A stretch of 64,000 nt of DNA from an uncultured Chloroflexia bacterium. Its GTDB lineage: Bacteria > Chloroflexota > Chloroflexia > Thermomicrobiales > UBA6265. The stretch is taken from positions 282,625-346,624 of the forward strand of contig CAVXMK010000014.1 in assembly GCA_963762985.1 (NCBI GenBank), in the 5' to 3' direction. A program made the translations under genes and the position numbers. Below are positions 2,008-49,697 of this stretch, piece by piece. The notes under the pieces were generated by a model. That model was given only the letters and a program-made list of their open reading frames with translations, searched no databases and was not told the DNA's origin. Numbering within the stretch: position 1 is the first letter of the stretch; every line of letters begins with the position of its first letter.

Positions 2008-3792
2008 ATGGACCAGTCGTCGTTCGACGAGTTAACACGTGTGCTTGGCGGAGCCGCATCGCGACGTCGTGCCCTGGGCGCGGTCATTGCCGCGGCGCTT
2101 GCCGGGAGAACGGCCGCGGAAATCATGGCCGCGCCCAGGAAGAAAGGCCGTGGCAAGGGCAAGGGTAAGGGCAAGAAAAAGAACAAGGGCCAGGGGAATA
2201 CTGGCAACGGGAATGACAATGGCAAGGGTAGCTGCGCCGGCTCGCCGCTGAGGCCCGGTCAGGACTTCCTGCGCTGCGATTTCTCCGGTCGAAACTTGCG
2301 GGGGCAGGATCTCCACTCCTCGTCGTTCAAGGATGTCGACTTTTCGTTCGCCGATCTCTGCGGCGTCGACTTTCACTCGGCGAGCTTCACCGAGACGGAC
2401 TTTATCGGAGCCAATCTCACCGACGCGAACTTCGACCAGTCCTCGCACGACGAAGTCAGCTTCGCCGAGGCGAATCTCGAAGGCGCCTCCTTCAAGGTGG
2501 CGACCTTCAGTGAGGTCGATTTCTCCGGGGCCAATCTCGCCCGCGCCAATTTCCGTGGCGCGACGCTCGACGAGGTCGATTTCTCCGGCGCTACCTTCTG
2601 CCAGACGATTCGGCCTGACGGCAGCACCGACAACCGCAATTGCGATATCTGCGACAACCTCTGCGGCACCTGCCAGAACTGCGACGAGGAGGACTGCGAA
2701 GCCCCCGACTGCTGCTCCGACCCGGAGACGGGCGACGGGGTATGCGTCGATACCGACACCGATCCACTGCACTGCGGAGCGTGCGGCGTGGCGTGCGGAG
2801 CCTCGTTGAACCCGTGCATCACCATCGAGTGCATCGATGCTGCATGCACCCCCGTCGAGGCCGCGGACGGCACGACCTGCGAGGAGGGCGAAGAGGCTGG
2901 CGTCTGCTGCGCCGCGGGCGATACGGTCACCTGCGTCGTCGGCGGCATCTGCTGCTCCAGCGCGCAGTGCGATGAGGGCGATACCTGCTGCAGCGGGCAG
3001 TGTGTCGATCTCCAGACCGATCCTGACAATTGCGGTGGCTGTGGCCCCGAGTTTGCCTGCGACGCAGGCGAAACCTGTTCCCAGGGCCAGTGCGTGTCGG
3101 ATGAGTGCGACAGCGGCGAAGTCCTCTGCGACAGCGTCTGCACGCCGGGCGTCTGCTGCGCGGATGACCAGTCCGGGCCGCAATGCCCCGCGGGGTTCAC
3201 CTGCATCGCCGGCGGCTGCGTCGGCGAGGGGCAGTTCCGCTTCGTGCTCAGGTGGGACGAGAACCCGCGGGATCTCGACACCCACGTCTGGTTGCCGCCA
3301 GCGACGCCGTACCACATCTATTTCGTCGACGAAGGCAGACTGGACCAGTTCCCCTTTGCGGAGCTGGACATCGACGACGTGACGAGTTTCGGTCCGGAAA
3401 CCGTCACGATCGCCCAATTGTTCGAGGGAACGTACCTCTACGCCGTGCACCTGTTCGCCGGCACGGGCACCATCGGCACGTCGGGCGCCGTGGTCGAGGT
3501 CTACGAGGGTGCGAACCTGGTCAACACCTTCCCTGTTCCCACGAACCTCTCCTGGGATCCGGACAACGGCCAGAACGTCTGGTGGAACGTCTTCAGCCTC
3601 ACCGTCGACGGGCAAGGGGACACGACGATCACCCCGATCAACACCGCCTCGGCGGATCCCGCGCCGTTCCCGGATACGCTGTCGCGTCGCGCCAGCGCCG
3701 AAAAATCCAAAAAGCCGGCCGATGGCGACCGCAACCGCAAGCGCGGCCGAGGCCGTGGCAAGGGCAAGAATCGGGGTCGTGCGCGGCGGTGA
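2008..3792 (+). CDS. Secreted multidomain protein: RR leader, polybasic tail, pentapeptide repeats, Stig1-like Cys modules, YfaP/DUF2135-like C-terminal domain, basic C-tail
   Basis: ATG at 2008 is preceded by GGGGGAG. Leader is MDQSSFDELTRVLGGAASRRRALGAVIAAALAG and the tail is KKGRGKGKGKGKKKNKG. A(D/N)LxG/F pentapeptide runs are present, along with the motif C-V-D-x-D-T-D-P-L-H-C-G-A-C-G-V-A-C. Start chosen inside track ORF 1930..3792. Confidence 0.85.
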   Translation: MDQSSFDELTRVLGGAASRRRALGAVIAAALAGRTAAEIMAAPRKKGRGKGKGKGKKKNKGQGNTGNGNDNGKGSCAGSPLRPGQDFLRCDFSGRNLRGQDLHSSSFKDVDFSFADLCGVDFHSASFTETDFIGANLTDANFDQSSHDEVSFAEANLEGASFKVATFSEVDFSGANLARANFRGATLDEVDFSGATFCQTIRPDGSTDNRNCDICDNLCGTCQNCDEEDCEAPDCCSDPETGDGVCVDTDTDPLHCGACGVACGASLNPCITIECIDAACTPVEAADGTTCEEGEEAGVCCAAGDTVTCVVGGICCSSAQCDEGDTCCSGQCVDLQTDPDNCGGCGPEFACDAGETCSQGQCVSDECDSGEVLCDSVCTPGVCCADDQSGPQCPAGFTCIAGGCVGEGQFRFVLRWDENPRDLDTHVWLPPATPYHIYFVDEGRLDQFPFAELDIDDVTSFGPETVTIAQLFEGTYLYAVHLFAGTGTIGTSGAVVEVYEGANLVNTFPVPTNLSWDPDNGQNVWWNVFSLTVDGQGDTTITPINTASADPAPFPDTLSRRASAEKSKKPADGDRNRKRGRGRGKGKNRGRARR

Positions 3793-6034: not shown

Positions 6035-9000
6035 ATGGACAACGCTGCATTCGACCGGTTGGCGCGACTGCTGGGGAGCGGCGCGTCGCGGCGCCACACG
6101 TTGCGCGCGCTGATCACCGCGGCCCTGGTCGGGGGCACGGCCGACGAGCTGCTGGCCAAAGACAAGAAGAACCGCGCCAAGAACCGCAAGCAGGGCAACG
6201 ACCGGGACGGCAACAACGACAAAGACAAAGATAAGAACAAGGACCGGCGCAATGGCCGTGGCGGCCAGGCCAATGCCGAAGCGAAAAAGAAAAATCAGAA
6301 CAAGAACAAGCAGAAGCGCAAGAAGAAAAAGAAGAAGAACAGCAACGGCGGCAATAGCGGCGGCAACAGTTGCGCCGGAACCCCGCTGCAGCCCGGGCAG
6401 GACTTCGTCGATTGCGATTTCTCCGACGCCAATCTGCGCGGGGAGAATCTCAAAGGCTCCCTCTTCAAGAATGTCGACCTCACCGATGCCGATCTCTGCG
6501 GCGCCGATCTGGAATCGTCCAGCTTCGCCGACACTACACTGGTCGACGCCAATCTCACTGACGTCAACCTCGACTCGTCGTCGCACAGCAAGGGCGACTT
6601 CTCCGGCGCCAACCTCACCAACGCCACCTTCCGTGTCGCCACCTTCAGCAAGGTCGACTTCTCGGGAGCCGACCTCACCGGCGCCGACTTCACCGGCGCC
6701 ACCCTGGATGACACCGACTTCGCCGGCGCCGTCTTCTGCCGCACCATCCATCCCAACGGCAACGTCGACAACCGCGACTGCGACATCTGCGACAACGAGT
6801 GCGGTCTCTGCGAAGACTGCGACGACGAGGACTGCACCCCGCCCGACTGCTGCCCGAACCCGGAGGGACCAGGCGGCATCTGCGTCAATACCGACACCGA
6901 CCCGCTCAACTGCGGCGGCTGTGACGCCGCCTGCTTCACCAACCTGTCCAACGCCTGCGTCGATGGCGAGTGCGTCTGCGGCAACGAGCCGGAGTGCTCC
7001 GGTGGCGAGACCTGCTGCCGTGGCGAGGGCGGTGGCGCCACCCGCTGTATCGACACGGACACCGATCCCCTGCACTGCGGCGCCTGCGACGAGGCGTGCC
7101 TGATCCCCCTCAACCCATGCCTCTCCGTCGAGTGTCAGGGCGGTCAGTGCGTCGAAGTCGGCGCCGCGGACGGGACGCCCTGCGAACTCGAGGGCGACCC
7201 TGGCGTCTGCTGCGCCGCCGGCAGCTCCGTCACCTGCGTCGTCGGGACCGAATGCTGCTCCAACGCCCAGTGCGACTCCGGCGAGGCCTGCTGCGAAGGG
7301 CAGTGCATCGACGTCGAGGACGACCCCAACAACTGTGGCGGCTGCGACGTCATCTGCCTGACCCCGACAAACCCGTGCCTCACCAACGAGTGCATCGAGG
7401 GCGGATGCGTAGACGGGACGCTCTCGGACGGCACGGAGTGCGCGTTCGTTGACGACACCGGCGTCTGCTGCGCCTCGGGTGGGACCAGCACCTGCGTCTT
7501 CGGCGCTGAGTGCTGCACCGATGCGCAGTGCGGCACGGGCCAATCATGCTGTGGCGGCCAGTGTCTGAACACCCAGACCGACTTCGATCGCTGCGGGTCA
7601 TGCACCAACCAATGCCCGGCTACCAAGGCCGACGCCTGCGTTGGCGGGGACTGTGTCTGCGGCGAGGAGCCGGAGTGCAACGGCAACCAGACCTGTTGCC
7701 CCGGCGAGGGCGGCAATCCGGCCTCCTGCCTCAACCTCAATAACGACACCCTCAACTGCGGCGCCTGCGGATTCGCCTGCCTGATCCCAACGAACCCGTG
7801 CCTCGCCGTCGAGTGCCAGGAGGGCGGATGCGTCGAGGTGCCCGTACTGAATGGCTCGGCCTGCGCGGTGGGCGAAGTGGGGGGCATCTGCTGCGCCTCG
7901 GGCGAGACGTCCGCCTGCATCGTGGGGGCGGAATGCTGCGACAGCTCGGTCTGTGAGGCGACCGAAGCCTGCTGCGAAAATCAGTGCATCGACGTTCAGG
8001 ACAACTTCGACAACTGCGGTGAGTGCGGCAACAGTTGCACGGACTCGGTGAATCAATGTTTCCACCGCGACTGTGTCCAGGGCGAGTGCCAAACCCTCCC
8101 CGACGAGGATGGCGAGCCGTGCTTCGCGGGCGAAGAGGGCATCTGCTGCGCCTCGACCCCAACCACCTCCATCTGCATCGGCGGCGGCCAGTGCTGCACC
8201 GACCTCGAATGCCCGGAGGGCGATAGCTGCTGCGATAACACCTGCTTCGAGACCAGCTCCGATTTCGACCACTGCGGGGGCTGTGACGGCTGCGACCCCG
8301 ACTTGGCAGACACCTGCGTCGAGGGCACGTGCGTCTGCGGGACCACGGGAGCCGCATGCGGGGCCGGCGAGACCTGCTGCAACGGCCAGTGCGTCGACAC
8401 CGACACCGACACCGACAACTGCGGCACGTGCGGCAACGCCTGCGATCCCCCGTTGAACTCGTGCAATACCGTCCTGTGCCTCGAAGGTACGTGCAACAAC
8501 TTCGCGGACCCCGACGGCACGATCTGCGTGGAGGGTCAGGACGAGGGCGTCTGCTGCTTCGACGACAACGCCGCCGTCTGCCTGGCGGGCGCCCAGTGCT
8601 GCTCCGACTCCGGATGCGACGTCACCGAAGCCTGCTGCGACAACCAGTGCGTCAACCCCAATACCGACTTCGACCACTGCGGCATTTGCACGAACGCCTG
8701 CATAGAGGGGAAGGCCGACGCCTGCTTCAACGGCCAGTGCGTCTGCGGGTCCGAGTTCCAATGCTCGGAAACCGAGACCTGCTGCAACGGCCAGTGCGTG
8801 GACACCAGCAATGATCTTGAGAACTGCGGCTCCTGTGGCGAGACATGTGGTGCAAACGAAACGTGCGTCGAGAGCGGGTGCGTTTGCCCGGGCATCCCCT
8901 GCGAGGGTCAATGTCTGGCGGAAGGTCCCGACGTCTGCTGCCTCCTCGCCGACTGCGAGACTCGCCTCTGCTATTTGCTTCTCGGCTGCAACGGCAACGT

Positions 9001-9088
9001 CTGCGAATACCAACAGCTCGCCGACAACACCGATTGCGGCTTCGGCGGTACGTGTGAAGGCGGCGTGTGCATCGGGCAGTCTGAATAA
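6035..9088 (+). CDS. Giant secreted Cys-rich protein: RR leader, about 75-aa polybasic tail, pentapeptide repeats, about 10 Stig1-like Cys modules
   Basis: Leader MDNAAFDRLARLLGSGASRRHTLRALITAALVGG. Tail is KDKKNRAKNRKQG...KKKNQNKNKQKRKKKKKKNSNGG. The pentapeptide block is collinear with the 2008 paralog. The motif D-x-x-(N/H)-C-G-x-C-x-x-x-C occurs about 12 times. GGGGGAG precedes the ATG. Confidence 0.9.
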   Translation: MDNAAFDRLARLLGSGASRRHTLRALITAALVGGTADELLAKDKKNRAKNRKQGNDRDGNNDKDKDKNKDRRNGRGGQANAEAKKKNQNKNKQKRKKKKKKNSNGGNSGGNSCAGTPLQPGQDFVDCDFSDANLRGENLKGSLFKNVDLTDADLCGADLESSSFADTTLVDANLTDVNLDSSSHSKGDFSGANLTNATFRVATFSKVDFSGADLTGADFTGATLDDTDFAGAVFCRTIHPNGNVDNRDCDICDNECGLCEDCDDEDCTPPDCCPNPEGPGGICVNTDTDPLNCGGCDAACFTNLSNACVDGECVCGNEPECSGGETCCRGEGGGATRCIDTDTDPLHCGACDEACLIPLNPCLSVECQGGQCVEVGAADGTPCELEGDPGVCCAAGSSVTCVVGTECCSNAQCDSGEACCEGQCIDVEDDPNNCGGCDVICLTPTNPCLTNECIEGGCVDGTLSDGTECAFVDDTGVCCASGGTSTCVFGAECCTDAQCGTGQSCCGGQCLNTQTDFDRCGSCTNQCPATKADACVGGDCVCGEEPECNGNQTCCPGEGGNPASCLNLNNDTLNCGACGFACLIPTNPCLAVECQEGGCVEVPVLNGSACAVGEVGGICCASGETSACIVGAECCDSSVCEATEACCENQCIDVQDNFDNCGECGNSCTDSVNQCFHRDCVQGECQTLPDEDGEPCFAGEEGICCASTPTTSICIGGGQCCTDLECPEGDSCCDNTCFETSSDFDHCGGCDGCDPDLADTCVEGTCVCGTTGAACGAGETCCNGQCVDTDTDTDNCGTCGNACDPPLNSCNTVLCLEGTCNNFADPDGTICVEGQDEGVCCFDDNAAVCLAGAQCCSDSGCDVTEACCDNQCVNPNTDFDHCGICTNACIEGKADACFNGQCVCGSEFQCSETETCCNGQCVDTSNDLENCGSCGETCGANETCVESGCVCPGIPCEGQCLAEGPDVCCLLADCETRLCYLLLGCNGNVCEYQQLADNTDCGFGGTCEGGVCIGQSE

Positions 9089-12641: not shown

Positions 12642-12711
12642 CGCGGCTGGGGTGACAGGCGCTGGGTAGCCGGCCATGGCCCGGACAGCGCAGGAGCAAG
12701 GGGGCGTAACC

Positions 12712-13815: not shown

Positions 13816-13910
13816 ACCTCGCGGCCAGGACCTGTCATAGTCCGCACCAGGGAGAAACGGGGACAACCGAAATCGGGCGCAGGGGCATCGGGATGGGGGG
13901 GATCACCGAC

Positions 13911-14201: not shown

Positions 14202-14248
14202 CCGCGCGGCCACGATGCCGTGACCCGCGCCAGACAAGGAACACCACG

Positions 14249-15333: not shown

Positions 15334-15539
15334 GATGACCTCCCCTCCCAGCCCAGGCTGGGAACGCATGCGCCGCGGACCTGGCACCGGTCGAATCTGC
15401 ACCGGGGTCCGGTGGCGTGCGCATCGTACGCCCAACATTGGTGCTGTCAAGTGGCGAATGGATTGGTAGTTCCATCCCGGAACCGATCTCGCCCCGACAA
15501 CGCCCCCTCATTCCCGGCTCCTCTCCCCTGGGACAACGG

Positions 15540-35044: not shown

Positions 35045-35107
35045 ACGCCTGCGATACGTAAGGCTGATGAGGAGATGCATCCATCTCAGCTCCACGGAGG
35101 ATCCACC

Positions 35108-35635
35108 ATGGCCGGCAAAGCAACACGGATCAATCGTCGTCGGACGCTGAAAGGCATTGCTGCCGCCGGTGCCGGCGCGGCGCTCGCCGCTGGCGGACCG
35201 ATCACGCCGGTGGGCGCAGCGAAGAAAAAGCCGAGCGGGAAGAAAAAGCCGAGCCTGTACGAACGGCTCGGTGGCATCTTCGCCATCGCCGCGGTCGTCG
35301 ACCGCTTCAGCGACGAGATCATCACCAACCCCAAGCTCAACGTCAACCCCGCCCTCAAGGCGTGGAACGAAACGGAGGCGGCGACCCGATTGCCGGGTCT
35401 GAAGGTGATGCGCACCATCTGGATCGCGTCAATGGCCGGCGGCCCGTTCAAGTACACCGGCTTGCCGCTGGAGGATGCCCACCAAGAGTTCAACCTCACG
35501 CCCGACGAGTTCGCGGAGGTCGGCGCCGAGATTGTCCGCGCGCTCGAGTTCTTCCAGGTGCCGGAACGTGAAATCCAGGAACTCGTGGCCACCTATCAGC
35601 AGTCCATGTCCGATGTGGTGAGTTCGTCTCCCTAG
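35108..35635 (+). CDS. Group-I truncated hemoglobin with RR leader and short polybasic tail
   Basis: GGAGGA precedes the ATG. Leader RINRRRTLKGIAAAGAGAALAAG and GAA|KKKPSGKKKPS tail, then SLYERLGG...VVDRF...GGPFKYTGLPLEDAHQEFNLTPDEF (trHb motifs). Confidence 0.8.
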   Translation: MAGKATRINRRRTLKGIAAAGAGAALAAGGPITPVGAAKKKPSGKKKPSLYERLGGIFAIAAVVDRFSDEIITNPKLNVNPALKAWNETEAATRLPGLKVMRTIWIASMAGGPFKYTGLPLEDAHQEFNLTPDEFAEVGAEIVRALEFFQVPEREIQELVATYQQSMSDVVSSSP

Positions 35636-41823: not shown

Positions 41824-42333
41824 CGTCGGGCGAGTCGAAAGTCGAAAGTCGGACGCGTCGTTCTCTGTCACCTGACAGAGGAACCTGCCAAACCCTGCCC
41901 CCGAAATCTGCCACCCCGATTCTGCCTCTTGCCAGAAGTCAGCGCCGCGCGCGCCCGGCATCATCGAACCGTGCCACCGCTGTCTGGCCCGAACCCGGCA
42001 CACGGGCAACGAGAGAGGATGAAACGGGGATGGTCAACCAGTTGCCCATGCACCTTTCCCTCGTGGAGCGCGAACGCGAGCTGCGAGCGTGGCAAAAGGA
42101 ATCCGAAACGCTGCGCGCGCTGGGCGACCGCCCGGCGCGACTGACCGGCCTCCGACGTTGGATCGCCGCGGCCGGCGACCAGATCGCTCGCGTGGTCTGG
42201 ACTCGGAAACCACCGCCGGCACTGGCCGGCGGTGGCCGCGGCCGCACGGAACTTGGCTCCTCGGCGGCTGCATAACCAATCCGGACGAACCGGCGAGGAT
42301 CTGCCCGCCGGCAAACAGGAAAGGACGTGAATC

Positions 42334-43449
42334 ATGGTCGCCGTCATTGCACCGCTCGAACTTCAGGCCGATGCCGTGGCCCGCCGCGATGCGCTGGCGG
42401 AACGCCTCTTTCAGGCGACGCTCGCCACCTGGGATATCGCCACCGTTTTCCTCGGTCACCGCCTCGGGCTCTACCAGGCGCTCTCCGAGGTGGAACCCGC
42501 CACCTCGGCCGAGGTCGCCGCGGCGGCCGGTCTGGCCGAGCGCTACACCCGCGAATGGCTGGAGCAGCAGGTCGTGACCGGCATCCTCACCTGCGAAAAC
42601 CCGAGCGCCCCGGCCGCCGATCGCCGCTACGTTATCCCGGCAGGCCACGAGGTGGTCCTCATCGACGTCGACGATGCGAACTACCTCGCCCCGCTGCCGC
42701 AGATCGTCGTCGGCGCCCTGCACCCGCTACCAGCGCTGCTCGGCGCGTTCCGCACCGGGGCCGGGGTCCCCTACGCCGACTACGGACTCGACCTGCGCGA
42801 CGGCCAGGCGGGGATGAACCGCAACCTGTTCCTGCAATCGCTCGGCAACGAGTACCTGCCGGCCATCGACGACCTGCACGACCGCCTCCTGGCCGATCCC
42901 CCCGCCCGCGTCGCCGACATCGGCTGCGGCGTCGGCTGGTCTTGCGTCGGCATCGCCCGGGCCTACCCGAACGTCATCGTCGACGGGTTCGACCTGGACG
43001 AGGCTTCCGTCGCCGCGGCCCAGGATGTCATCCGCGAAGCGGGCGTGGCCGATCGCGTCGACGTGCTCCTGCGCGACGCCGCCGCTCCCGACCTGGCCGG
43101 CCGCTACGACCTGGTCACCGCCTTCGAATGCGTCCACGACATGAGCGACCCCGTCGGCGCGCTGCGCACCATGCGCCGCCTCGCCGGCGAGAATGGCACG
43201 GTCCTCGTCATGGACGAGCGGGTCGCCGATACCTTCGACCCGGAGGCCGGCGACGTGGAGCGCTTCATGTACGGCTTCAGCGTGCTGCACTGCCTCCCGG
43301 TTGGCCTGGAAGAGCGCCCTTCGGCGGCGACAGGCACCGTCATGCGCGCCGGCACCCTGCTGGGCTATGCCGCGGAGGCCGGCTTCCAGCAGGCGGACGT
43401 TTTGCCCTTGGAGCACCCCTTCTTCCGCTTCTACCGCCTGAGCGGGTAG
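42334..43449 (+). CDS. SAM-dependent methyltransferase with N-terminal winged-helix-like domain
   Basis: VADIGCGVGWSCVGIARAY (motif I), DLDEASV, DLVTAFECVHDMSDP, NGTVLVMDE. Confidence 0.85.
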   Translation: MVAVIAPLELQADAVARRDALAERLFQATLATWDIATVFLGHRLGLYQALSEVEPATSAEVAAAAGLAERYTREWLEQQVVTGILTCENPSAPAADRRYVIPAGHEVVLIDVDDANYLAPLPQIVVGALHPLPALLGAFRTGAGVPYADYGLDLRDGQAGMNRNLFLQSLGNEYLPAIDDLHDRLLADPPARVADIGCGVGWSCVGIARAYPNVIVDGFDLDEASVAAAQDVIREAGVADRVDVLLRDAAAPDLAGRYDLVTAFECVHDMSDPVGALRTMRRLAGENGTVLVMDERVADTFDPEAGDVERFMYGFSVLHCLPVGLEERPSAATGTVMRAGTLLGYAAEAGFQQADVLPLEHPFFRFYRLSG

Positions 43450-43462
43450 TTCGCCGACCCGT

Positions 43463-43487
43463 TGGGCGGCGGTGAACCCGCCGCCCA
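43463..43487 (+). terminator. Terminator-like hairpin
   Basis: TGGGCGGCGG-TGAAC-CCGCCGCCCA, 14 nt after the methyltransferase stop. No T-tract. Confidence 0.5.
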
Positions 43488-43619: not shown

Positions 43620-44807
43620 ATGAACGACGCACGTTTCGCCACCCTCATCCGCGCCCTGACGGGTGGGGCGGTGACCAGGCGTACGCTTGGCCAGGGCCTC
43701 GCGGGTGGCGCCATCGCGGCCGGTCTTGCCCAGTTCAGGTTGGACACCATCGGCGCCAGGCGCCGGAAAAAGAAGCGAAAGAAAGGCAAGGGCAAGAAGC
43801 GGCGCGGCGGCGGCAATGGCGGCGGGAACAGCGATCGTTGCCAGTTCGAGATCTGCGAAGGGGCGTGCGTCGATCTCGACACTGACGCGAACAACTGCGG
43901 CGCCTGCGGCGACGCCTGCCCGGACGGTTCGCCCTGCGTTGGTGGCTTGTGCGCGTTCGCCGCCGGCGGGGAAGGCGACGGAGAAGGCGAGTTCGACCGG
44001 CCATTCGGCATCGCATTCGACAGCAACGGATTCGGCTACGTCGCCGACGCCAACAACCGGCGTGTCCACCGATATTTGGTTGGCGATTTCTTTGGAACGT
44101 TCGGCGAGTTCGGTGAAGGCGACGGGCAATTCTTGCGGCCAATCGGCGTGGCGGTCGTGAACGAGACCGGCGAAGTCTTCGTTAGCGACTCCGATCTCAG
44201 CCGGATCCAGAAGTTCGACGCGAACGGCGACTTCCTGCTCGGCTTCGGGAACTTCGGCAACGGCTCCGGTCAGTTCAAGAACCCGCTCGCGCTGGCCTTC
44301 GACCAACAGGCGAACCAAGTGTTCGTGGCCGACACGAACAACCACCGCATCTCTCGCCTCAGCGCCACGCTCTTCCCCCTGGAGCGGTTCGGGCAATTCG
44401 GCAGCGGCGAGGGCCAGTTCAACGGCCCGCAAGGCATCGCCATCGACGCGAATCGAAACATCTTCGTGGCCGACACCGGGAACAACCGCATCCAGGTCTT
44501 CGACCTGCGGCGGGAATTCGTGCGGGCGTTCGGCGAGCAGGGCGCCGGGCCGGGGCAGTTCAACGGGCCGACCGGCGTGGCGGTCGATGACCAGGGGAAT
44601 CTCTTCGTCGTCGACACCGGGAACAACCGCATCCAGCAGTTCTCGGTCGATGGGACGTTCCGCAAAACCTTTGGCCGCGCCGGCACCGGGCTCGGCGAGT
44701 TCGACGAGCCGTTCGGCATCGGGATCGACGGCAGCGGGTTCCTCAATGTCGTCGATACGAGGAATGAGCGCGTGCAGTTCTTCATCCCGGCGCGATTCCT
44801 CGACTGA
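43620..44807 (+). CDS. Secreted NHL-repeat beta-propeller protein 1 (RR leader, polybasic tail, one Stig1-like Cys module, six NHL blades)
   Basis: GGAAGGA precedes the ATG. MNDARFATLIRALTGGAVTRRTLGQGLAGGAIAAGLA, then IGA|RRRKKKRKKGKGKKRRGGGNGGGN, then CVDLDTDANNCGACGDAC. Blades such as FNGPQGIAIDANRNIFVADTGNNRIQVF. Confidence 0.9.
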   Translation: MNDARFATLIRALTGGAVTRRTLGQGLAGGAIAAGLAQFRLDTIGARRRKKKRKKGKGKKRRGGGNGGGNSDRCQFEICEGACVDLDTDANNCGACGDACPDGSPCVGGLCAFAAGGEGDGEGEFDRPFGIAFDSNGFGYVADANNRRVHRYLVGDFFGTFGEFGEGDGQFLRPIGVAVVNETGEVFVSDSDLSRIQKFDANGDFLLGFGNFGNGSGQFKNPLALAFDQQANQVFVADTNNHRISRLSATLFPLERFGQFGSGEGQFNGPQGIAIDANRNIFVADTGNNRIQVFDLRREFVRAFGEQGAGPGQFNGPTGVAVDDQGNLFVVDTGNNRIQQFSVDGTFRKTFGRAGTGLGEFDEPFGIGIDGSGFLNVVDTRNERVQFFIPARFLD

Positions 44808-44862
44808 TCGCGGTTGGAGGCGCCCACGGGCGCCCCGATGTCGGAAGCCTCAGGAGGACATT

Positions 44863-46095
44863 GTGGAGACAACGCCATTAGCCAATCTCGTGCGCGTCGT
44901 CATGGATGGCGTCTATACGCGGCGCGGCCTTGGTCAGCGGTTCAGCTCTGCTGCGCTCGCTTCCGCGCTTGCCCTGACGGTGGAAGACATCGACGCCCGC
45001 CAGCGCGGCGGCAAGAAGCGTCGCCGAAAAAGGAAGAAGCGCGGCGGCAACAACGGCGGTGGGAACGACCGCTGCCCATTCGAGCGCTGCGGAGGGCAAT
45101 GTCTCGACCTCGACAACGACCCAACCAACTGCGGAGCGTGCGGGCGCGCATGCGACATGGACGCCGTCTGCGTCGCCGGCTTCTGCGCGGTCGCCGCTGG
45201 CAGCCGCGGCAGCGGCGGCAAGCAATTCGATGGGCCGTTCGGCGCCGGCGTCACAAGCGACGGTCTCGTCCTCGTTGCGGACTCGAACAACCGGCGCATT
45301 CAGATCACCGGCGGCGGCAGCTTCTTCGGTTCGTTTGGCGAGTCCGGCGAAGGCGACGGGCAGTTTCTGGACCCGGCGGGCGTGGCGGTCGGCCCGGGGA
45401 CGGAAATCTACGTGACCGACATTGCGCGCCACGACATTCAGCGTTTCGGCTCCGGTCAACGATTCGATGTCGGGACGGGCGGGTTCGGCTCCGAACTGGG
45501 CCAATTCAACACCCCGACAGGCGTCGCCGTCGACCAAGCCACCGGCGAGGTGTGGGTCGCCGACAGAAACAACCACAGCCTTCAGGTGCTCAGCGCCGAC
45601 CTCGTCGCGCGCCGGCGGATCGGTCGTCTCGGGAGCGGCGACGGCGAGTTCAACGAGCCGTTCGGGGTCGCATTCGACGACGTCAACGGTCACGTCGTCG
45701 TGGCCGACAGCGCGAACAACCGCATCCAGATCCTCGACCGGGAGGGGCGCTTCGTCCGCGCGTTCGGCCGCCAGGGGACCGGGAACGGCGAGTTCGACAT
45801 CCCGGTGGCGCTCGCGCTCGACACGGCCGGGGACATCTTCGTGGTGGACCTCTTGAATGACCGGGTCCAACAGTTTTCCCCCGAGGGAACGTTTCGCAAG
45901 GCGTTCGGCCGAACCGGGAGCGGAATCGGCGAGTTCAGCCTGCCGGTCGGCATCGCCATCAGCTCGCGGGACGTCATCACCGTCGTCGATCAAGGCAACG
46001 ACCGCATCCAGGTCTTCGTCCCGGCGGGGTCGGACTTCGAAGCCCAGTCTCGCGCGAAGCGTCGGTGCCAAGGGCGCCAAGGAGTTGAGAGATGA
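44863..46095 (+). CDS. Secreted NHL-repeat beta-propeller protein 2
   Basis: GTG at 44863 lies 5 nt after AGGAGG. VETTPLANLVRVVMDGVYTRRGLGQRF.., then IDA|RQRGGKKRRRKRKKRGGNNGGGN, then CLDLDNDPTNCGACGRAC, then six NHL blades. Confidence 0.85.
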   Translation: METTPLANLVRVVMDGVYTRRGLGQRFSSAALASALALTVEDIDARQRGGKKRRRKRKKRGGNNGGGNDRCPFERCGGQCLDLDNDPTNCGACGRACDMDAVCVAGFCAVAAGSRGSGGKQFDGPFGAGVTSDGLVLVADSNNRRIQITGGGSFFGSFGESGEGDGQFLDPAGVAVGPGTEIYVTDIARHDIQRFGSGQRFDVGTGGFGSELGQFNTPTGVAVDQATGEVWVADRNNHSLQVLSADLVARRRIGRLGSGDGEFNEPFGVAFDDVNGHVVVADSANNRIQILDREGRFVRAFGRQGTGNGEFDIPVALALDTAGDIFVVDLLNDRVQQFSPEGTFRKAFGRTGSGIGEFSLPVGIAISSRDVITVVDQGNDRIQVFVPAGSDFEAQSRAKRRCQGRQGVER

Positions 46096-47345
46096 GACAT
46101 GCACGGTTCGATTCGCTGGTCCGTGAGTTGGCGGCTGGTTCGCTCACGCGCCGCGGCGTCGCTCAGGGGTTCGGCGGAGCGGTGTTGGCCTCCACACTTG
46201 CCCTGACTGGCTTGGCCGAGACCGAGGCCAAGCGGCGTCGTGGGAAGAAGCGTCGCAAAAAGAGAGGCAGCACGCGCCGCGGCGGCAACGACCGTTGTCA
46301 GTTCACTCGCTGCGACGGGCGGTGCGTCAACTTCGAAACCGACCCGGACAACTGCGGCGCCTGCGGCGACGCCTGCCCGGACGATCTGCCGTGCGTCGCC
46401 GGCCTCTGCGTGCTCGCGCTCGGCGGTCCCGACGATGATTTCGCCGGCCTCGGTAGCCCGGGCGGCGTCGCCGTGAACGCCGATGGGGTCGGCGTGGTCG
46501 CGGACAGAACCAACGAGCGCATCTTGCGCTTCCAGCGCGGCGAGCGGATCGAGTTCCTCGGCTCGTTCGGCGAGCGCGGCGAGGAAGACGGCCAGTTCCT
46601 GGAGCCGTCCGGCGTGGCGATCGACGGCGACGCCATCTTCGTGACCGACGCCGACCGGCACCGCATCCAGCGCTTCGACCTCCAGGGGAATTTTGAAGCA
46701 GCGGGCGGGAGCTTTGGCTCCGGGCTCGGGCAATTCGATTCCCCGCAGGGCATCGCCATCGATCCCCCGACCGGTGAGCTGTTCGTGGTCGATACGTTCA
46801 ACCACAGCGTGCAGCGGCTCGCCGCCGACTTCTCGCCGCTGAGCCGGATCGGACGCGAGGGCAACGGGAACGGCGAGTTCAGCTTTCCGTCCGGGATCGC
46901 CATCGACGGCGACGGCGACCTGGTCGTGGCCGATGTCCTCAACCACCGCATCCAGGTGCTCGACCGCGACGGGAACTTCATTCGCGCCTTCGGCCGCCGA
47001 GGGGACGGCGCCGGCGAGTTCAACGAGCCGCTCTCCGTGGCGGTCGACGCGGCCGGCGACATCTTCGTCGTCGATAACCAGAACCGCGGCATCCAGCGCT
47101 TCACCGGCGACGGGCAGTTCGTCAAGACGTTCGGCCGCCAGGGAACGGGGGTGGGTGAGTTCGAGTTTCCGTTCGGCATCGCCGTCGATTCCCTGGGGAT
47201 CATCACCGTCACCGATGTGGGAAGCCACCCCCTCCAATTGTTCTTCCCGGCGAACGTCTTCGCGGCGGGAGAAGGGATCGCAACCGCGAAAGATGAACTG
47301 CTCGGGGACCGTCCCGCGAGGAAGCAACGAAGGAGGACATCGTGA
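46092..47345 (+). CDS. Secreted NHL-repeat beta-propeller protein 3
   Basis: ATGA start/stop overlap with the previous gene. MRHARFDSLVRELAAGSLTRRGVAQGF.., then TEA|KRRRGKKRRKKRGSTRRGGN, then CVNFETDPDNCGACGDAC, then six NHL blades. Confidence 0.9.
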   Translation: MRHARFDSLVRELAAGSLTRRGVAQGFGGAVLASTLALTGLAETEAKRRRGKKRRKKRGSTRRGGNDRCQFTRCDGRCVNFETDPDNCGACGDACPDDLPCVAGLCVLALGGPDDDFAGLGSPGGVAVNADGVGVVADRTNERILRFQRGERIEFLGSFGERGEEDGQFLEPSGVAIDGDAIFVTDADRHRIQRFDLQGNFEAAGGSFGSGLGQFDSPQGIAIDPPTGELFVVDTFNHSVQRLAADFSPLSRIGREGNGNGEFSFPSGIAIDGDGDLVVADVLNHRIQVLDRDGNFIRAFGRRGDGAGEFNEPLSVAVDAAGDIFVVDNQNRGIQRFTGDGQFVKTFGRQGTGVGEFEFPFGIAVDSLGIITVTDVGSHPLQLFFPANVFAAGEGIATAKDELLGDRPARKQRRRTS

Positions 47346-47914
47346 ACGCATCCCATTTCGGCGATTTTGCTCGGGTGCTGACGGACGGCGCGATCACGCG
47401 GCGGGCGGTCATGCGGGGCATGGCCGGGGCGCTTGGCGCGGCTGGGCTATCGCATGCGGGATTGACCAGTCTCCAAGCCAAAAAGGGTAAGCGGCGCAAG
47501 CAACCATCGCCGGTGAACCGGTTCGGCTGCCGCAACGTCGGTGTCGCGTGCTCGAGCGCCAATCAGTGCTGCTCCGGCATCTGCGAGGGCGGGCGCGGTA
47601 AGGACAAGAACGGCAAGAAGCGGAGAAGGACGTGCCGGGCGCACGACACGGGGGGCTGCAAGGTTTCCCAGGATTCCTGCTCGACGAGCACGAACTTCAC
47701 CTGCACCACGATCACCGGTGAGGCAGGATTCTGCCACCTGACCACCGGCAACGCCCCCTACTGTGCGTTCGATGGGATTGATTCGGAGTGCACGAGGGAC
47801 GAGGACTGCATTGACCTTTGCGGCCCCCAGGCGGCCTGCAGCGTCTGCGCCGAGCCGGGGTTGGCGGCGTTCCGCTTCTGCGCCGGTCCCAGCAGATGCG
47901 AAGGTTTTGCATGA
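47342..47914 (+). CDS. Secreted knottin-like Cys-rich protein with the same leader and polybasic tail
   Basis: GTGA overlap with the previous gene, with GGAGG upstream. VNASHFGDFARVLTDGAITRRAVMRGMAGALGAAGLS, then LQA|KKGKRRKQPS. Pattern C-x6-C-x5-CC-x3-C-x16-C with basic loop RGKDKNGKKRRRT, then a second Cys-rich half. Confidence 0.8.
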   Translation: MNASHFGDFARVLTDGAITRRAVMRGMAGALGAAGLSHAGLTSLQAKKGKRRKQPSPVNRFGCRNVGVACSSANQCCSGICEGGRGKDKNGKKRRRTCRAHDTGGCKVSQDSCSTSTNFTCTTITGEAGFCHLTTGNAPYCAFDGIDSECTRDEDCIDLCGPQAACSVCAEPGLAAFRFCAGPSRCEGFA

Positions 47915-47999
47915 CAGCAGCGCACACGGTCGGGGCGCGGCAAGCCGCGCCCCGACCACGGACACAGGCTCCGAAAAGAGCGAGAGGAGGTTTTCCATC

Positions 48000-48875
48000 A
48001 TGGTGACGTTGCACTCTGCACACGCAAAGGCGGGGCTGGACATGACAAGCGGCACCGTAAAGCGCGTCGCATTACCGAGCGGCCTGACGCTCCCCTACGT
48101 CGAGCAGGGCGACTCCAATGGTCTGCCCGTGGTGCTGCTGCACGGCTTCTCCGACTCCTGGTGGTCCTGGGCGTCCGTCCTGCCGCATCTGCCCGGATCG
48201 ATCCATACCTACGCCCCCTCGCAACGGGGACACGGCGACGCGGATCGACCCGCAATGGGCTACCGCTTCGAGGACTTCGCCGCCGATTTGACCGCGTTCA
48301 TGGACACCCTCGATATCGAGCGCGCCGTCATCGGTGGCCATTCGATGGGCAGCTACGTCGCTCAACGGTTCGCCATGGAACATCCTGAGCGCGTCCTGGG
48401 GCTGGTGCTCGTCGGTTCGGCCACGACCTGGCGGGGCAACCCGGCCATCACGGAGGTCTGGGAGTCCGGCATCGCGACGATGACGGACCCGATCGATCCG
48501 CAATTCGTGACCGAGTTTCAGACCAGCCCGCGGACGCCCCGGACATTCCTTGGCATCGCCATCCGGGAGAGCCTCAAAGCCCCGGCCCGCGTCTGGCGAG
48601 AGGCCTGGCAAGCCATCATGACCACCGATTTTTCGGCCGACCTGGGCAAGATCGCGGCCCCCACGCTCATCATCTGGGGCGACGAGGACCCCCTTTGCCC
48701 TCGCCCCGAGCAAGAGGCCCTGACCGCCGCGATTGCGTCTTCCCGCCTCATCGTCTACCCCGGCGGCGGCCACAACCTGCATTGGGAGGAACCTGAGCGC
48801 TTCGCCGACGACCTCCTGACGTTCGTCAACCAACTAGACTTCCGCATCCCCACGATGCCATCGCAGGAAGGATGA
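48000..48875 (+). CDS. Alpha/beta hydrolase, copy 1
   Basis: GAGAGGAGG upstream of ATG 48000. HGFSDSWWSW, nucleophile elbow GHSMGS, C-terminal GGGHNLHWEEPERF. Confidence 0.85.
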   Translation: MVTLHSAHAKAGLDMTSGTVKRVALPSGLTLPYVEQGDSNGLPVVLLHGFSDSWWSWASVLPHLPGSIHTYAPSQRGHGDADRPAMGYRFEDFAADLTAFMDTLDIERAVIGGHSMGSYVAQRFAMEHPERVLGLVLVGSATTWRGNPAITEVWESGIATMTDPIDPQFVTEFQTSPRTPRTFLGIAIRESLKAPARVWREAWQAIMTTDFSADLGKIAAPTLIIWGDEDPLCPRPEQEALTAAIASSRLIVYPGGGHNLHWEEPERFADDLLTFVNQLDFRIPTMPSQEG

Positions 48876-48878
48876 ACG

Positions 48879-49697
48879 ATGCCGACCGCTCCATCACCCG
48901 CAATCCACTCGACCGCGCTGACCACCGGCGTCCGTCTGCCATACGTCGAGCAGGGCGATCCGGCCGGCGTACCCGTGCTCCTCCTGCACGGCTACACCGA
49001 CTCCTGGCGATCCTGGAAGCCGGTGCTCCCCTACCTCCCCGCCACCATCCACGCCTTTGTCCCGACGCAACGGGGCCACGGCGACGCCGACCGCCCCGCA
49101 ACGGGCTACGGCCCGCGCGACTTCGCTGCGGACGCGGCAGCGTTCATGGACGCCGTCGGCATCGGACCGGCCGTCGTCGTCGGCACGTCGATGGGCAGCA
49201 TCGTCGCGCAGCGGTTTGCGCTCGACTACCCGGCGCGCACCAAGGGACTGGTGCTCGTGGCCGCGGCCACCACGTGGCGCACCCCGGCGGCGTTGGAGCT
49301 CTGGGACGTCGTCGCGACCCTCGAAGACCCGATCGATCCGGGCTTCGTGCGCGAATTTCAGGAGAGCACCCTCGCCCAGCCGGTGGCGCCAGCGTTCATC
49401 GACACCGTGGTCGCGGAGAGCCTGAAGGTTCCCGCGCGAGTGTGGCGCGCGGCGCTGCGCGAGGGCCACCTGGAGGCCAATCTCGCGACCGAACTCGGCG
49501 CGATCCAGGCGCCCACCTTGATCGTCTCTGGCGATCGGGACGCGATCCATCTCCGGAGCGAGCAGGCGTCCCTGGTACGAGCGATCCCCGACGCGCGCCT
49601 CGTCGTGTACCCCAACGCCGGTCACGCCATCCACTGGGAAGAGCCCACCCGCTTCGCCGCCGACCTGCTGGCCTTCACCGAGCGCCACGCCGCTTGA
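48879..49697 (+). CDS. Alpha/beta hydrolase, copy 2 (tandem paralog)
   Basis: Collinear with copy 1 (LPYVEQGD..LLHGYTDSWRSW, GTSMGS, AGHAIHWEEPTRF) with a 3-nt gap between them. Confidence 0.85.
   Translation: MPTAPSPAIHSTALTTGVRLPYVEQGDPAGVPVLLLHGYTDSWRSWKPVLPYLPATIHAFVPTQRGHGDADRPATGYGPRDFAADAAAFMDAVGIGPAVVVGTSMGSIVAQRFALDYPARTKGLVLVAAATTWRTPAALELWDVVATLEDPIDPGFVREFQESTLAQPVAPAFIDTVVAESLKVPARVWRAALREGHLEANLATELGAIQAPTLIVSGDRDAIHLRSEQASLVRAIPDARLVVYPNAGHAIHWEEPTRFAADLLAFTERHAA

What the first reader, a model, noticed from the sequence alone, without database searches (positions are those of the whole stretch)
43620..47914. Translationally coupled four-gene operon: three paralogous NHL propellers plus a knottin-like protein, all with the same leader, tail and Cys module
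Gene boundaries are a 55-nt gap, then an ATGA overlap (46092-46095), then a GTGA overlap (47342-47345). Each NHL protein has this order: leader, polybasic tail ending in G-G-N(-S)-D-R-C, one module C-(V/L)-(D/N)-(L/F)-(D/E)-(T/N)-D-x-x-N-C-G-A-C-G-x-A-C...C-(V/A)-(G/A)-(G/L/F)-C, and then six NHL blades.

Three diverged copies kept in tandem and co-translated suggest a hetero-oligomeric or combinatorial extracellular assembly, not simple redundancy. No enzyme, transporter or regulator is encoded in the operon. A terminator-like hairpin at 43463-43487 separates it from the upstream methyltransferase.
Basis: partly seen in the sequence, partly recalled or inferred. Interest (0 to 1): 0.65.

Follow-up and report, generated by a model that had tools for sequence, protein, structure and literature searches.

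The report
Secreted NHL propeller cassette, Thermomicrobiales
A soil Thermomicrobiales bacterium carries a tightly packed four-gene cassette for three old paralogous NHL beta-propeller proteins and one 18-cysteine mini-protein; the cassette is a copy-number-variable member of a known kind, but the export leader plus 10-15 lysine/arginine tail that all four share also tags hundreds of other cysteine-rich proteins of this lineage, and no curated family covers it.

Summary
Four + strand genes (43620-47914) are joined by a 55-nt gap, an ATGA overlap and a GTGA overlap, and GC hairpins bracket the block. The three NHL proteins are about 50% identical. Each has a leader, a polybasic tail, one 8-Cys module (Pfam Stig1, above threshold) and a six-bladed NHL propeller. 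The propeller model is confident and lies 1.0-1.7 Å from the animal Thin and TRIM71 NHL domains.

Syntenic loci in related Thermomicrobiales metagenome contigs carry one, two or three NHL genes before the orthologue of the small protein. An obligate three-part hetero-oligomer is therefore unlikely. The copies are not recent duplicates either: they fall into three old clades, each with orthologues elsewhere.

The leader and tail are not specific to the operon. Two other genes in the window carry the same leader, and five more have an RR signal followed by a basic tract. A leader profile finds 357 protein clusters in public data, whose passengers are nearly all cysteine-rich (median 12.9% Cys, against 0.5% for other window proteins). 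The junction fits a signal-peptidase site (A-x-A, then K/R), so the mature proteins would begin with the polybasic tract.

My best reading is Tat-like export of acidic binding propellers and a co-made cysteine-rich partner, held on an anionic surface by cationic tails. Function is inferred, not shown.

The parts
43464..43486 (+). GC-rich hairpin between the methyltransferase stop (43449) and g1. It is a possible terminator or boundary and has no U-tract.
   Evidence: 9-bp stem, -32.9 kcal/mol, z = -3.5. Not listed by the consensus scan.
43620..44807 (+). g1, NHL paralogue of clade A (395 aa). Parts: leader residues 1-46 (43620-43757); polybasic/Gly-Asn tail 47-73 (43758-43838, net +14); Stig1-type 8-Cys module about 74-115 (43839-43964); six-bladed NHL propeller 116-395 (43965-44804).
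44808..44862 (+). 55-nt spacer between g1 and g2, with AGGAGG before the GTG start of g2. It has only a weak, non-significant hairpin.
   Evidence: z = -1.4
44863..46095 (+). g2, NHL paralogue of clade B (410 aa, GTG start). Parts: leader 1-45 (44863-44997); tail 46-70 (44998-45072, net +12); Cys module from residue 71 (45073); propeller; short basic C-terminal tail.
   Evidence: (orthologue P0007, propeller 70% identical)
46092..47345 (+). g3, NHL paralogue of clade C (417 aa), with an ATGA overlap with g2. Parts: leader 1-46 (46092-46229); tail 47-68 (46230-46295, net +13); Cys module from residue 69 (46296); propeller; basic C-terminal tail.
   Evidence: (fastest-evolving, dN/dS 0.42-0.60)
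47342..47914 (+). g4, small 18-Cys protein (190 aa, GTG start), with a GTGA overlap with g3. Parts: leader 1-46 (47342-47479); basic tail 47-62 (47480-47527, net +7); Cys-rich body 63-190 (47528-47911). The body starts with a 6-Cys stretch of ICK-like spacing around an internal basic loop.
   Evidence: pLDDT above 80 from residue 51, mostly above 90; no PDB fold match
47928..47957 (+). Strong GC hairpin directly after g4; the likely 3' boundary of the unit.
   Evidence: 13-bp stem, -35.5 kcal/mol, z = -5.1, matched by 0 of 200 shuffles
42334..43449 (+). Conserved upstream neighbour: a SAM-dependent methyltransferase with an Rv2258c-like winged-helix domain. It lies directly upstream of the NHL genes in every related locus whose upstream DNA was recovered.
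48000..49697 (+). Conserved downstream neighbours: two tandem alpha/beta hydrolases (48000-48875 and 48879-49697).
6035..9088 (+). Same leader and polybasic tail (ending GGNSGGNSC) on a 1017-aa protein with 150 Cys, made of pentapeptide repeats and many Stig1-type modules. This shows the leader and tail are used genome-wide.
2008..3792 (+). Same leader and polybasic tail on a 594-aa pentapeptide-repeat, Cys-rich protein (42 Cys).

Best explanation
The block is a single, translationally coupled cassette of a soil Thermomicrobiales (Chloroflexota) bacterium. It encodes exported, non-enzymatic binding proteins: three anciently diverged NHL six-bladed propellers and one disulfide-rich mini-protein.

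Each protein is made with a lineage-specific Tat-like signal, in this order:
- a conserved N-terminal helix, RFDxLxRxL;
- an invariant twin arginine;
- a weakly hydrophobic Gly/Ala-rich core;
- an acidic c-region ending in (A/T/V)-x-A.

I infer that signal peptidase cuts after that Ala. The mature protein would then start with a 7-14-charge polybasic tract, followed by a flexible Gly/Asn linker. In the NHL proteins one Stig1-type 8-Cys module comes next, and then an acidic propeller (pI 4.3-4.7).

I infer two roles for the polybasic tract. It keeps the precursors off the Sec route. After export it holds the proteins electrostatically on an anionic surface, either the producer's own envelope or matrix or another cell. 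The propellers act there as ligand-binding platforms, and the small Cys protein is made in fixed proportion as a partner or co-factor.

The number of NHL genes (1-3) varies between relatives. The paralogues therefore most likely widen or change binding specificity and do not build one obligate complex.

What is shown: gene layout, domain make-up, fold, synteny, copy-number variation, paralogue age, and the wide use of the leader and tail on Cys-rich proteins. What is inferred: the export route, the cleavage site, surface tethering and the binding function.
For: Layout and coupling.

Domains and fold:
- NHL scores 115-135 bits against a cut-off of 20, and Stig1 scores 27.5-31.5 against 24.1.
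- The g1 model has mean pLDDT 84.5, with most of residues 80-395 above 90.
- Foldseek matches Thin and TRIM71 NHL domains at 38-41% identity, rmsd 1.0-1.7 Å.
- PDB profile hits include the extracellular PknD sensor, E = 3.9e-38.

Taxon: the neighbouring methyltransferase sits in a 90% cluster with a Thermomicrobiales MAG protein.

Conserved cassette with 1-3 NHL genes.

Three old clades. Purifying selection with faster protein evolution than the neighbour: dN is 0.04-0.09 for the methyltransferase and 0.39-0.42 for the g3 clade over the same pairs of genomes.

Leader and tail as a general tag:
- g1-g4 and two other window genes match the leader profile, and five more window genes have an RR signal followed by a basic tract.
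- 357 representative clusters match the leader profile at E <= 1e-3, and nearly all of the 150 best match from their first residues.
- Of the top 147, 146 have RR and 127 have a polybasic tract. The median Cys content after the tract is 12.9%, against 0.51% in 18 other window proteins.

Cleavage-site signature in 124 sequences: position -1 is Ala in 107, position -3 is a small or aliphatic residue in 113, positions -4/-5 are acidic, and +1 is K/R. The tract starts a median 27 residues after the RR.

Tat-like character:
- The h-region hydropathy is 1.2-1.6, like the other RR signals in the window and below the Sec-type signal at 2.45.
- There is weak similarity to the formate-dehydrogenase Tat region and to MelC1.
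- The same basic tract follows a Pfam-recognised Tat signal on the globin at 35105.
- Established knowledge supports the role proposed: Tat h-regions are Gly-rich and weakly hydrophobic, basic residues after the core act as Sec-avoidance, and many positive charges after a weakly hydrophobic helix make Sec release it to Tat (PMC7317946).

Charge dipole: tails are +12 to +14 and NHL bodies -13 to -24.
Against: - Pfam's TAT_signal model does not match the g1-g4 leaders even at E <= 10. The xFLK part of the consensus is poorly kept.
- Tat normally carries proteins folded in the cytoplasm, which is awkward for proteins that need many disulfides.
- By the positive-inside rule, a +13 flank after a hydrophobic segment would favour keeping the C-terminal side in the cytoplasm.
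- There is no experimental or expression data, and no ligand, partner contact or Tat genes were examined.
- The more distant g4 relatives stand alone without NHL genes, so the NHL/small-protein partnership is not general.
- Conserved neighbours (methyltransferase, hydrolases) might mean a metabolic role instead.
Confidence: 0.55

Rival explanations
1. One reading: the three paralogous propellers and the small protein assemble into one hetero-oligomeric or combinatorial extracellular complex.
For: - The genes are translationally coupled.
- Three diverged copies are kept under purifying selection.
- Cationic tails on acidic bodies could drive tail-to-body association between subunits.
Against: - Relatives with the same cassette have only one NHL gene (clade B or clade C) or two (A + C).
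- L003 lacks the small protein.
- The closest solved NHL domains are ligand-binding modules; from my own knowledge they are not known as obligate hetero-oligomers.
Confidence: 0.12
2. An antagonism cassette. The cationic, disulfide-rich small protein, and perhaps the whole leader/polybasic/Cys-rich class, is a secreted antimicrobial or toxin-like factor. It would home electrostatically onto the anionic surfaces of competitors, with the propellers as target-binding or carrier modules.
For: - Cationic plus Cys-rich is the hallmark of defensin- or knottin-type peptides.
- g4 has ICK-like spacing (C-x6-C-x5-CC-x3-C-x16-C). Its only PDB profile hits, though not significant, are spider ICK and scorpion toxins.
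- These proteins evolve faster than their neighbours.
- Leader-bearing genes cluster in arrays (L103).
- There is a precedent for electrostatic homing by a cationic segment of a secreted Gram-positive toxin (bioRxiv 10.1101/2025.07.24.666436).
Against: - There is no toxin domain, immunity gene or transporter in the cassette.
- dN/dS is below 1 throughout.
- There is no significant similarity to any toxin.
Confidence: 0.15
3. A metabolic cassette. The propellers are extracytoplasmic enzymes or scaffolds (ScyF- or PAL-like) that work with the conserved methyltransferase and alpha/beta hydrolases on a small molecule, under the upstream LuxR/LAL-type regulator.
For: - The methyltransferase lies directly upstream of the NHL genes in every locus whose upstream DNA was recovered, and a hydrolase lies downstream in most, even where the outer flanks differ.
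- The best NCBIfam match is ScyF, an NHL protein of a pigment pathway.
- PAL is a distant structural match.
Against: - ScyF scores are 164-200 bits against a cut-off of 350, and there is no PEP-CTERM.
- The invariant residues are only the structural NHL motif, with no His/Tyr/Arg catalytic set.
- Strong hairpins separate the block from both neighbours.
- The methyltransferase has no signal.
- The regulator is disrupted in the window while the cassette is intact.
Confidence: 0.1
4. Not exported. The N-terminal segment is a reverse signal-anchor or is not membrane-active at all, so the polybasic tract and propeller stay in the cytoplasm and bind nucleic acid, as the TRIM71 and Brat NHL domains bind RNA.
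For: - The positive-inside rule favours a cytoplasmic C-terminal side: +13 to +15 after the core against +3 to +5 before it.
- The closest solved structures are RNA-binding NHL domains.
- Polybasic tracts commonly bind nucleic acids.
Against: - The passengers are extremely Cys-rich, up to 15%. Stig1-type modules are typical of secreted proteins.
- A conserved A-x-A site sits at signal-peptide distance from the RR.
- The propeller bodies are strongly acidic (pI 4.3-4.7), the opposite of an RNA-binding surface.
- The hydrophobic core is too weak for a stable anchor.
Confidence: 0.06

Closest known systems
Extracytoplasmic bacterial NHL propellers, e.g. the sensor domain of M. tuberculosis PknD (PDB 1RWI)
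   Same: A six-bladed NHL beta-propeller placed outside the cytoplasmic membrane and thought to bind a ligand. The profile match is E = 3.9e-38.
   Different: The PknD propeller is the C-terminal sensor of a transmembrane kinase. Here the propellers are free-standing, with a cleavable-looking leader, a polybasic tail and a Stig1 module, in tandem arrays of 1-3 genes, with no kinase.
Animal TRIM-NHL domains (Thin/TRIM32, TRIM71/LIN-41, TRIM2/3, Brat)
   Same: The highest sequence and structure similarity found: 38-41% identity, rmsd 1.0-1.7 Å, target-normalised TM up to 0.96 for chains that are the NHL domain alone.
   Different: These are cytoplasmic RNA- or protein-binding modules at the end of RING-B-box-coiled-coil proteins. 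The propellers here are acidic, are preceded by an export leader, and carry disulfide-type modules.
ScyF (NF035926), the NHL protein of the cyanobacterial scytonemin cluster
   Same: The best NCBIfam hit; an NHL propeller predicted to be outside the cytoplasm.
   Different: Scores are 164-200 bits against a cut-off of 350. There is no PEP-CTERM anchor and no scytonemin genes nearby.
Stig1 (PF04885) / MXAN_6577-like cysteine-rich repeat (NF041328)
   Same: The 8-Cys module C..C.G.C.DL.TD..NCG.CG..C.....C..G.C passes the Pfam gathering score in all three proteins. It recurs about ten times in the 1017-aa window protein.
   Different: Each NHL protein has only one module. It matches the C-terminal half of the plant STIG1 model and falls below the NCBIfam cut-off, which expects several repeats. 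No function is known for the bacterial unit.
Twin-arginine (Tat) signal peptides with Sec-avoidance charges, including the last helix of dual Sec-Tat Rieske proteins
   Same: An invariant RR; a Gly/Ala-rich, weakly hydrophobic core; an A-x-A site; positive charge after the core (PMC7317946).
   Different: - A conserved extra N-terminal helix (RFDxLxRxL).
- A poor match to xFLK, and no Pfam TAT_signal hit.
- A tract of 7-15 K/R where known signals have one or a few basic residues.
- The cargo is Cys-rich, not cofactor-containing.
Inhibitor cystine knot (knottin) mini-proteins
   Same: g4 residues 63-98 have the spacing C-x6-C-x5-CC-x3-C-x16-C. The nearest PDB profile matches are omega-atracotoxin and another spider ICK peptide.
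   Different: Those matches are not significant (E 0.12-0.19), and there is no fold match. g4 has 12 further cysteines in a second domain with no known relative, and the disulfide connectivity is unknown.

Membership tests
NHL repeat six-bladed beta-propeller (PF01436) | NHL repeat profile above the Pfam gathering score | tested here: met
   135.3, 118.1 and 115.6 bits against a cut-off of 20
NHL repeat six-bladed beta-propeller (PF01436) | Six four-stranded blades closing a propeller | tested here: met
   24 strands in six blades, with pLDDT mostly above 90 from residue 80 on; target-normalised TM 0.92-0.96 and rmsd 1.0-1.7 Å to the NHL-only Thin and TRIM71 chains.
Stig1 (PF04885) / MXAN_6577-like Cys-rich module (NF041328) | Profile score above the curated cut-off | tested here: met
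   Pfam: 31.5, 27.5 and 29.4 against 24.1, covering profile positions about 35-85 only. NCBIfam NF041328: 31-35 bits against 100, not met, because that model spans several repeats.
ScyF (NF035926) | Equivalog score of at least 350 bits and a C-terminal PEP-CTERM anchor | tested here: not met
   164-200 bits. The C-termini are ...FFIPARFLD...RQGVER and ...KQRRRTS, none of which is a PEP-CTERM.
Tat signal peptide | Consecutive arginines before the hydrophobic core | tested here: met
   R20 and R21 are invariant in A2 and A3 and at least 90% conserved in A5.
Tat signal peptide | Extended S-R-R-x-F-L-K consensus / Pfam PF10518 match | tested here: not met
   no TAT_signal hit for g1-g4 at E <= 10. 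The globin leader in the same window does hit (E = 6.7e-4, below the curated cut-off). The g1-g4 sequences read TRR(T/G/A)(L/V)(G/A/M)(Q/R).
Tat signal peptide | Weakly hydrophobic Gly/Ala-rich core, an A-x-A site, basic residues after the core | tested here: met
   mean hydropathy 1.2-1.6 against 2.45 for a Sec-type signal; position -1 is Ala in 107 of 124 and position -3 is small or aliphatic in 113 of 124.
Tat signal peptide | Export depends on TatA/TatC and on the RR pair | not testable with these tools
   Needs genetics or a heterologous export assay.
Inhibitor cystine knot (for g4) | Six Cys with spacing C-x3-7-C-x3-8-CC-x2-6-C-xn-C | tested here: met
   Read from the sequence: C63-x6-C70-x5-C76C77-x3-C81-x16-C98, conserved across A3.
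Inhibitor cystine knot (for g4) | Significant sequence or fold similarity to known knottins; knotted I-IV, II-V, III-VI disulfides | tested here: not met
   best E = 0.12-0.19; no Foldseek match (best E = 2.4). Disulfide connectivity cannot be tested here.
Operon (single transcription unit) | Same strand, overlapping or closely spaced start and stop codons, boundary hairpins | tested here: met
   The overlaps are conserved in relatives.
Operon (single transcription unit) | One transcript covering all four genes | not testable with these tools
   No expression data. The consensus promoter scan found nothing.

The most novel reading that the evidence does not exclude
The leader plus polybasic tail may mark an undescribed, Thermomicrobiales-wide sorting system dedicated to disulfide-rich proteins. 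It would consist of a Tat-like signal with its own conserved N-terminal recognition helix (RFDxLxRxL), cleaved at a conserved A-x-A directly before a 10-15-residue Lys/Arg tract. That tract becomes the mature N-terminus and acts as an electrostatic address: retention on the producer's envelope or homing to other cells. On this reading the NHL cassette is one cargo set among hundreds, and Tat or a Tat-like route exports large numbers of cysteine-rich proteins, which runs against the usual view of Tat cargo.
Probability: 0.35. Interest if true: 0.7.

Novelty: new variant of a known kind. Interest (0 to 1): 0.5.

Why it matters
The operon itself adds a variable tandem family of secreted NHL propellers with a conserved cysteine-rich partner, found in a poorly studied soil lineage.

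The wider point is the N-terminal tag: an RR leader, an A-x-A site and a polybasic tract. At least 357 protein clusters carry it, and their passengers are about 25 times richer in cysteine than other proteins of the window. Neither Pfam nor NCBIfam has a model for it.

If the tag is a real export-and-tethering signal, three things follow:
- It would show how a bacterium of a lineage I take, from general knowledge, to be monoderm keeps secreted proteins at its surface.
- It would test the limits of charge and cargo type for the Tat and Sec routes.
- It would flag a large untapped set of stable disulfide-rich mini-proteins.

Tried and rejected
- A genome-contig scan with the family alignment returned only generic NHL propellers from many phyla (47% identity or less, propeller region only). 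None had the leader, so it gave neither the source genome nor any synteny.
- Pfam TAT_signal on ten leaders at E <= 10 hit only the globin. I therefore do not file the leader as a canonical Tat signal.
- The consensus promoter/terminator scan found nothing useful in this 67% GC DNA, and it does not list the two GC hairpins found by folding.
- Rfam and tRNA scans of the whole window found nothing.
- PADLOC gave only weak repeat-level hits, so a defence-system reading was dropped.
- Foldseek and PDB profile searches for g4 gave no significant match.
- A leader-only profile through the word-indexed protein search gave just 16 hits. The exhaustive search was the informative one.
- Six literature searches found no description of this leader, tail or cassette.
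- I considered recent tandem duplication and rejected it: the copies are about 50% identical and each clade has orthologues elsewhere.
- I considered the 828-aa fused NHL ORF in L092 as a natural fusion. L093, a near-identical locus, has two separate genes, so I left it as a possible assembly or read-through artefact.

Full report
OBSERVATION

The four + strand genes are as described.
- g1 runs 43620-44807 (ATG, with GGGAAGGA upstream).
- g2 runs 44863-46095 (GTG, AGGAGG upstream), after a 55-nt gap.
- g3 runs 46092-47345 and overlaps g2 as ATGA.
- g4 runs 47342-47914 and overlaps g3 as GTGA.

A 9-bp GC hairpin lies at 43464-43486 (z = -3.5). A 13-bp hairpin lies at 47928-47957 (z = -5.1). Together they bracket the block. 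Neither has a U-tract, and the consensus scan does not list them. Third-position GC of 0.84-0.85 supports the + strand frames for g1 and g3. That simple gene-finder listed neither g2 nor g4. The many ORFs on the other strand are the usual by-product of 67% GC DNA.

The three NHL proteins are 49-51% identical over their full length. g4 shares the leader and a shorter basic tail but has a different cysteine pattern.

WHAT THE PARTS ARE

Pfam gives NHL at 115-135 bits. It places the Cys module in Stig1 (PF04885) above the gathering score in all three proteins. NCBIfam adds sub-threshold matches to MXAN_6577-like Cys-rich repeats and to ScyF.

The AlphaFold2 model of g1, built on a 21-sequence alignment, has mean pLDDT 84.5. 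Most of residues 80-395 score above 90, and there are six four-stranded blades. Residues 1-71 are not confidently modelled.

Foldseek finds the NHL domains of Drosophila Thin and of TRIM71 at 38-41% identity and 1.0-1.7 Å rmsd. The PDB profile search also lists TRIM2/3, Brat, the extracellular PknD sensor and, distantly, PAL. The invariant columns of the family are the structural NHL motif only.

g4 has no Pfam or NCBIfam hit. Its model is confident, with pLDDT above 80 from residue 51 and mostly above 90, but it has no PDB fold match. The only sequence-profile hits are non-significant matches to spider ICK and scorpion toxins. Residues 63-98 do have ICK spacing.

SOURCE AND RELATIVES

The adjacent methyltransferase falls in a 90% cluster with a protein of a Thermomicrobiales MAG. 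The exact g4 sequence is on record on an 859,552-bp contig.

Full-length relatives with the same architecture exist only in metagenomes and MAGs, at 55% identity or less to g1. Scanning one genome per GTDB species returned only generic propellers.

SYNTENY AND COPY NUMBER

The arrangement methyltransferase, then NHL gene(s), then the small Cys protein, then an alpha/beta hydrolase recurs.
- One NHL gene: L001, L002, L095, and L094 (which lacks the hydrolase).
- Two NHL genes: L084-L089 and L092/L093.
- Three NHL genes: only the window.
- L003 has one NHL gene and no g4 orthologue.

The 4-nt overlap between the last NHL gene and the small gene is kept in most of these loci.

An NJ tree of the Cys module plus propeller gives three clades:
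- A: g1, L093_1 and L084_1 (bootstrap 100);
- B: g2 and P0007 (100), loosely joined with P0003, L001 and L095 (57);
- C: g3, L084_2, L093_2 and L094 (87).

The window thus holds A + B + C, while relatives hold A + C, B alone or C alone. The copies are old, not strain-specific duplicates, but no fixed set is required.

Leader and propeller histories disagree. g1 and L093_1 are 91% identical in the propeller but 53% in the leader and tail. This suggests exchange or fast turnover of the 5' modules.

Between the window and L084, identity is 93% for the methyltransferase, 72% for g1 and 63% for g4. dN/dS is 0.11-0.19 for the methyltransferase, 0.19-0.28 for g1, 0.24-0.31 for g4 and 0.42-0.60 for the g3 clade. 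All are functional genes. The last NHL gene is the least constrained.

The g4 family has 68 members. Only the close subfamily, with roughly 64% or more identity in the best-matching mature segment, sits behind NHL genes. More than 30 distant members stand alone, some in tandem with each other.

THE LEADER AND TAIL ARE A GENERAL TAG

The same leader and polybasic tail occur in the window on a 594-aa protein (2008-3792) and a 1017-aa protein (6035-9088). Both combine pentapeptide repeats with a Cys-rich region, and the larger one has many Stig1-type modules. An RR signal followed by a basic tract also occurs on four Gly/Ser-rich proteins (12393-14677) and on a truncated globin (35105-35635).

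A 57-position profile of six window leaders was searched against 1.84 billion representative proteins. It finds 357 clusters at E <= 1e-3, and nearly all of the 150 best match from their first residues.

Of the top 147:
- 146 have RR and 127 have a polybasic tract;
- among the 113 with at least 40 residues after the tract, the median Cys content is 12.9%, and 90 have 6% or more;
- 18 other window proteins have 0.51% Cys;
- only about a sixth have any Pfam domain (Stig1 16, NHL 6, pentapeptide 2), and no Pfam or NCBIfam model covers the leader.

The junction is highly ordered. Positions -5/-4 are acidic. Position -3 is A, T, V, L, S or G in 113 of 124 sequences, and position -1 is Ala in 107 of 124. 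K/R follows. The tract starts a median 27 residues after the RR and holds a median of 10 K/R. This is the (-3, -1) pattern of a type I signal-peptidase site at a normal signal length.

The hydrophobic core is Gly/Ala-rich, with mean hydropathy 1.2-1.6. That is like the other RR signals in the window and well below a Sec-type signal at 2.45.

These features fit Tat signals as reviewed in PMC7317946: a weakly hydrophobic, glycine-rich core; basic Sec-avoidance residues; and the finding that many positive charges behind a weakly hydrophobic helix make Sec hand the segment to Tat.

Against membership, Pfam's TAT_signal model does not match g1-g4. Only weak NCBIfam similarity to Tat regions is seen.

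MECHANISM: WHAT IS SHOWN AND WHAT IS INFERRED

Shown: a conserved coupled cassette of one to three NHL propellers plus a Cys-rich small protein. All carry a lineage-wide N-terminal tag that is tied to cysteine-rich passengers.

Inferred:
- The tag directs export by a Tat-like route.
- It is cut after the conserved Ala.
- The mature proteins then begin with a +7 to +14 tail on a flexible linker.
- The NHL bodies are strongly acidic (net -13 to -24, pI 4.3-4.7), so each mature protein is a charge dipole.
- The tail most plausibly holds the protein on an anionic surface, and the propeller binds a ligand there.
- The small protein is made in step as a partner.

Rivals are set out with their tests in the rival-explanations section: an obligate hetero-oligomer, a cationic Cys-rich antagonism factor (precedent for electrostatic homing), a metabolic role with the flanking enzymes, and a cytoplasmic nucleic-acid-binding role.

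COMPARISON AND NOVELTY

The propellers are ordinary members of the NHL family, and the Cys module is a known repeat. Tandem, fast-evolving paralogues of secreted binding proteins are a familiar pattern.

Three things are not curated or described in what I could search (six literature searches, Pfam, NCBIfam, PADLOC, PDB):
- the leader with its N-terminal helix;
- the conserved polybasic mature N-terminus;
- their near-exclusive link to cysteine-rich cargo.

The g4 fold also has no known relative.

I rate the finding a new variant of a known kind, interest 0.5. The operon-level claim is confirmed. The hetero-oligomer reading is weakened. The more interesting lead is the tag.

Noticed in passing
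window 6035-9088 (+) and 2008-3792 (+), with 4358-5824 (-) between them: Two paralogous giant secreted proteins carry the same leader and tail, followed by pentapeptide repeats and a Cys-rich region. The larger is 1017 aa with 150 Cys and many Stig1-type modules; the smaller is 594 aa with 42 Cys. An IS66-family transposase gene lies between them.
   Followed up: partly
window 12393-12641, 12712-13815, 13911-14201, 14246-14677 (+): A cluster of four genes with an RR signal, an acidic A-x-A-like junction and a basic Arg/Asn-rich tract. Unlike g1-g4, they lack the RFDxLxR helix, and their passengers are Gly/Ser/Thr-rich low-complexity sequences, not Cys-rich ones. No Pfam hits for the two that were scanned (12712-13815 and 14246-14677).
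   Followed up: partly
window 35105-35635 (+): A bacterial-type (truncated) globin with a Tat signal that Pfam matches weakly (E = 6.7e-4, below the curated cut-off), followed by AAKKKPSGKKKPS. In this organism, then, a lysine-rich stretch also follows a recognisable Tat signal on a haem protein.
   Followed up: partly
window 39493-41820 (+): The LuxR/LAL-type regulator (AAA-TPR-GerE) upstream of the cassette is intact in relatives (799 aa in L084). In the window it is split over frames 1, 2, 3 and 1 (breaks near 40570, 41200 and 41600). It is either a pseudogene or carries assembly errors. A second, intact paralogue lies at 60536-62662 (-).
   Followed up: partly
L084 12551-13759 versus L086 2624-3850: Two otherwise identical NHL genes from different samples differ by a 6-residue (18-nt) insertion or deletion inside the polybasic tract (KRKRKQRR against KRKKKRKRKRKQRR). 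Tract length is therefore polymorphic between strains.
   Followed up: no
L092 3928-6414 versus L093 514-2999: In L092 the two NHL genes are called as one 828-aa ORF that reads through the spacer. In the near-identical L093 they are separate genes of 389 and 422 aa. This is a possible natural read-through fusion or a sequencing artefact.
   Followed up: no
L103 5996-11350: A metagenome contig with at least five neighbouring ORFs that match the leader profile, one of them g4-like. Genes for leader-tagged Cys-rich proteins form arrays.
   Followed up: no
window 42030-42275 (+): A small conserved ORF of about 81 aa (MVNQLPMHLSLVERERELRAWQKE...) lies between the regulator and the methyltransferase. 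It is 80% identical to its L084 counterpart, and ORFs of similar size (77-97 aa) hold the same position in other related loci. It has no PADLOC hit and was not scanned against Pfam or NCBIfam.
   Followed up: no
window 14857-15450 (-): A dirigent / allene-oxide-cyclase-like protein with an ordinary Sec-type signal. I used it only as a hydrophobicity control. L003 8347-9003 encodes a protein of similar size and appearance with a Sec-type signal; the two were not compared.
   Followed up: no
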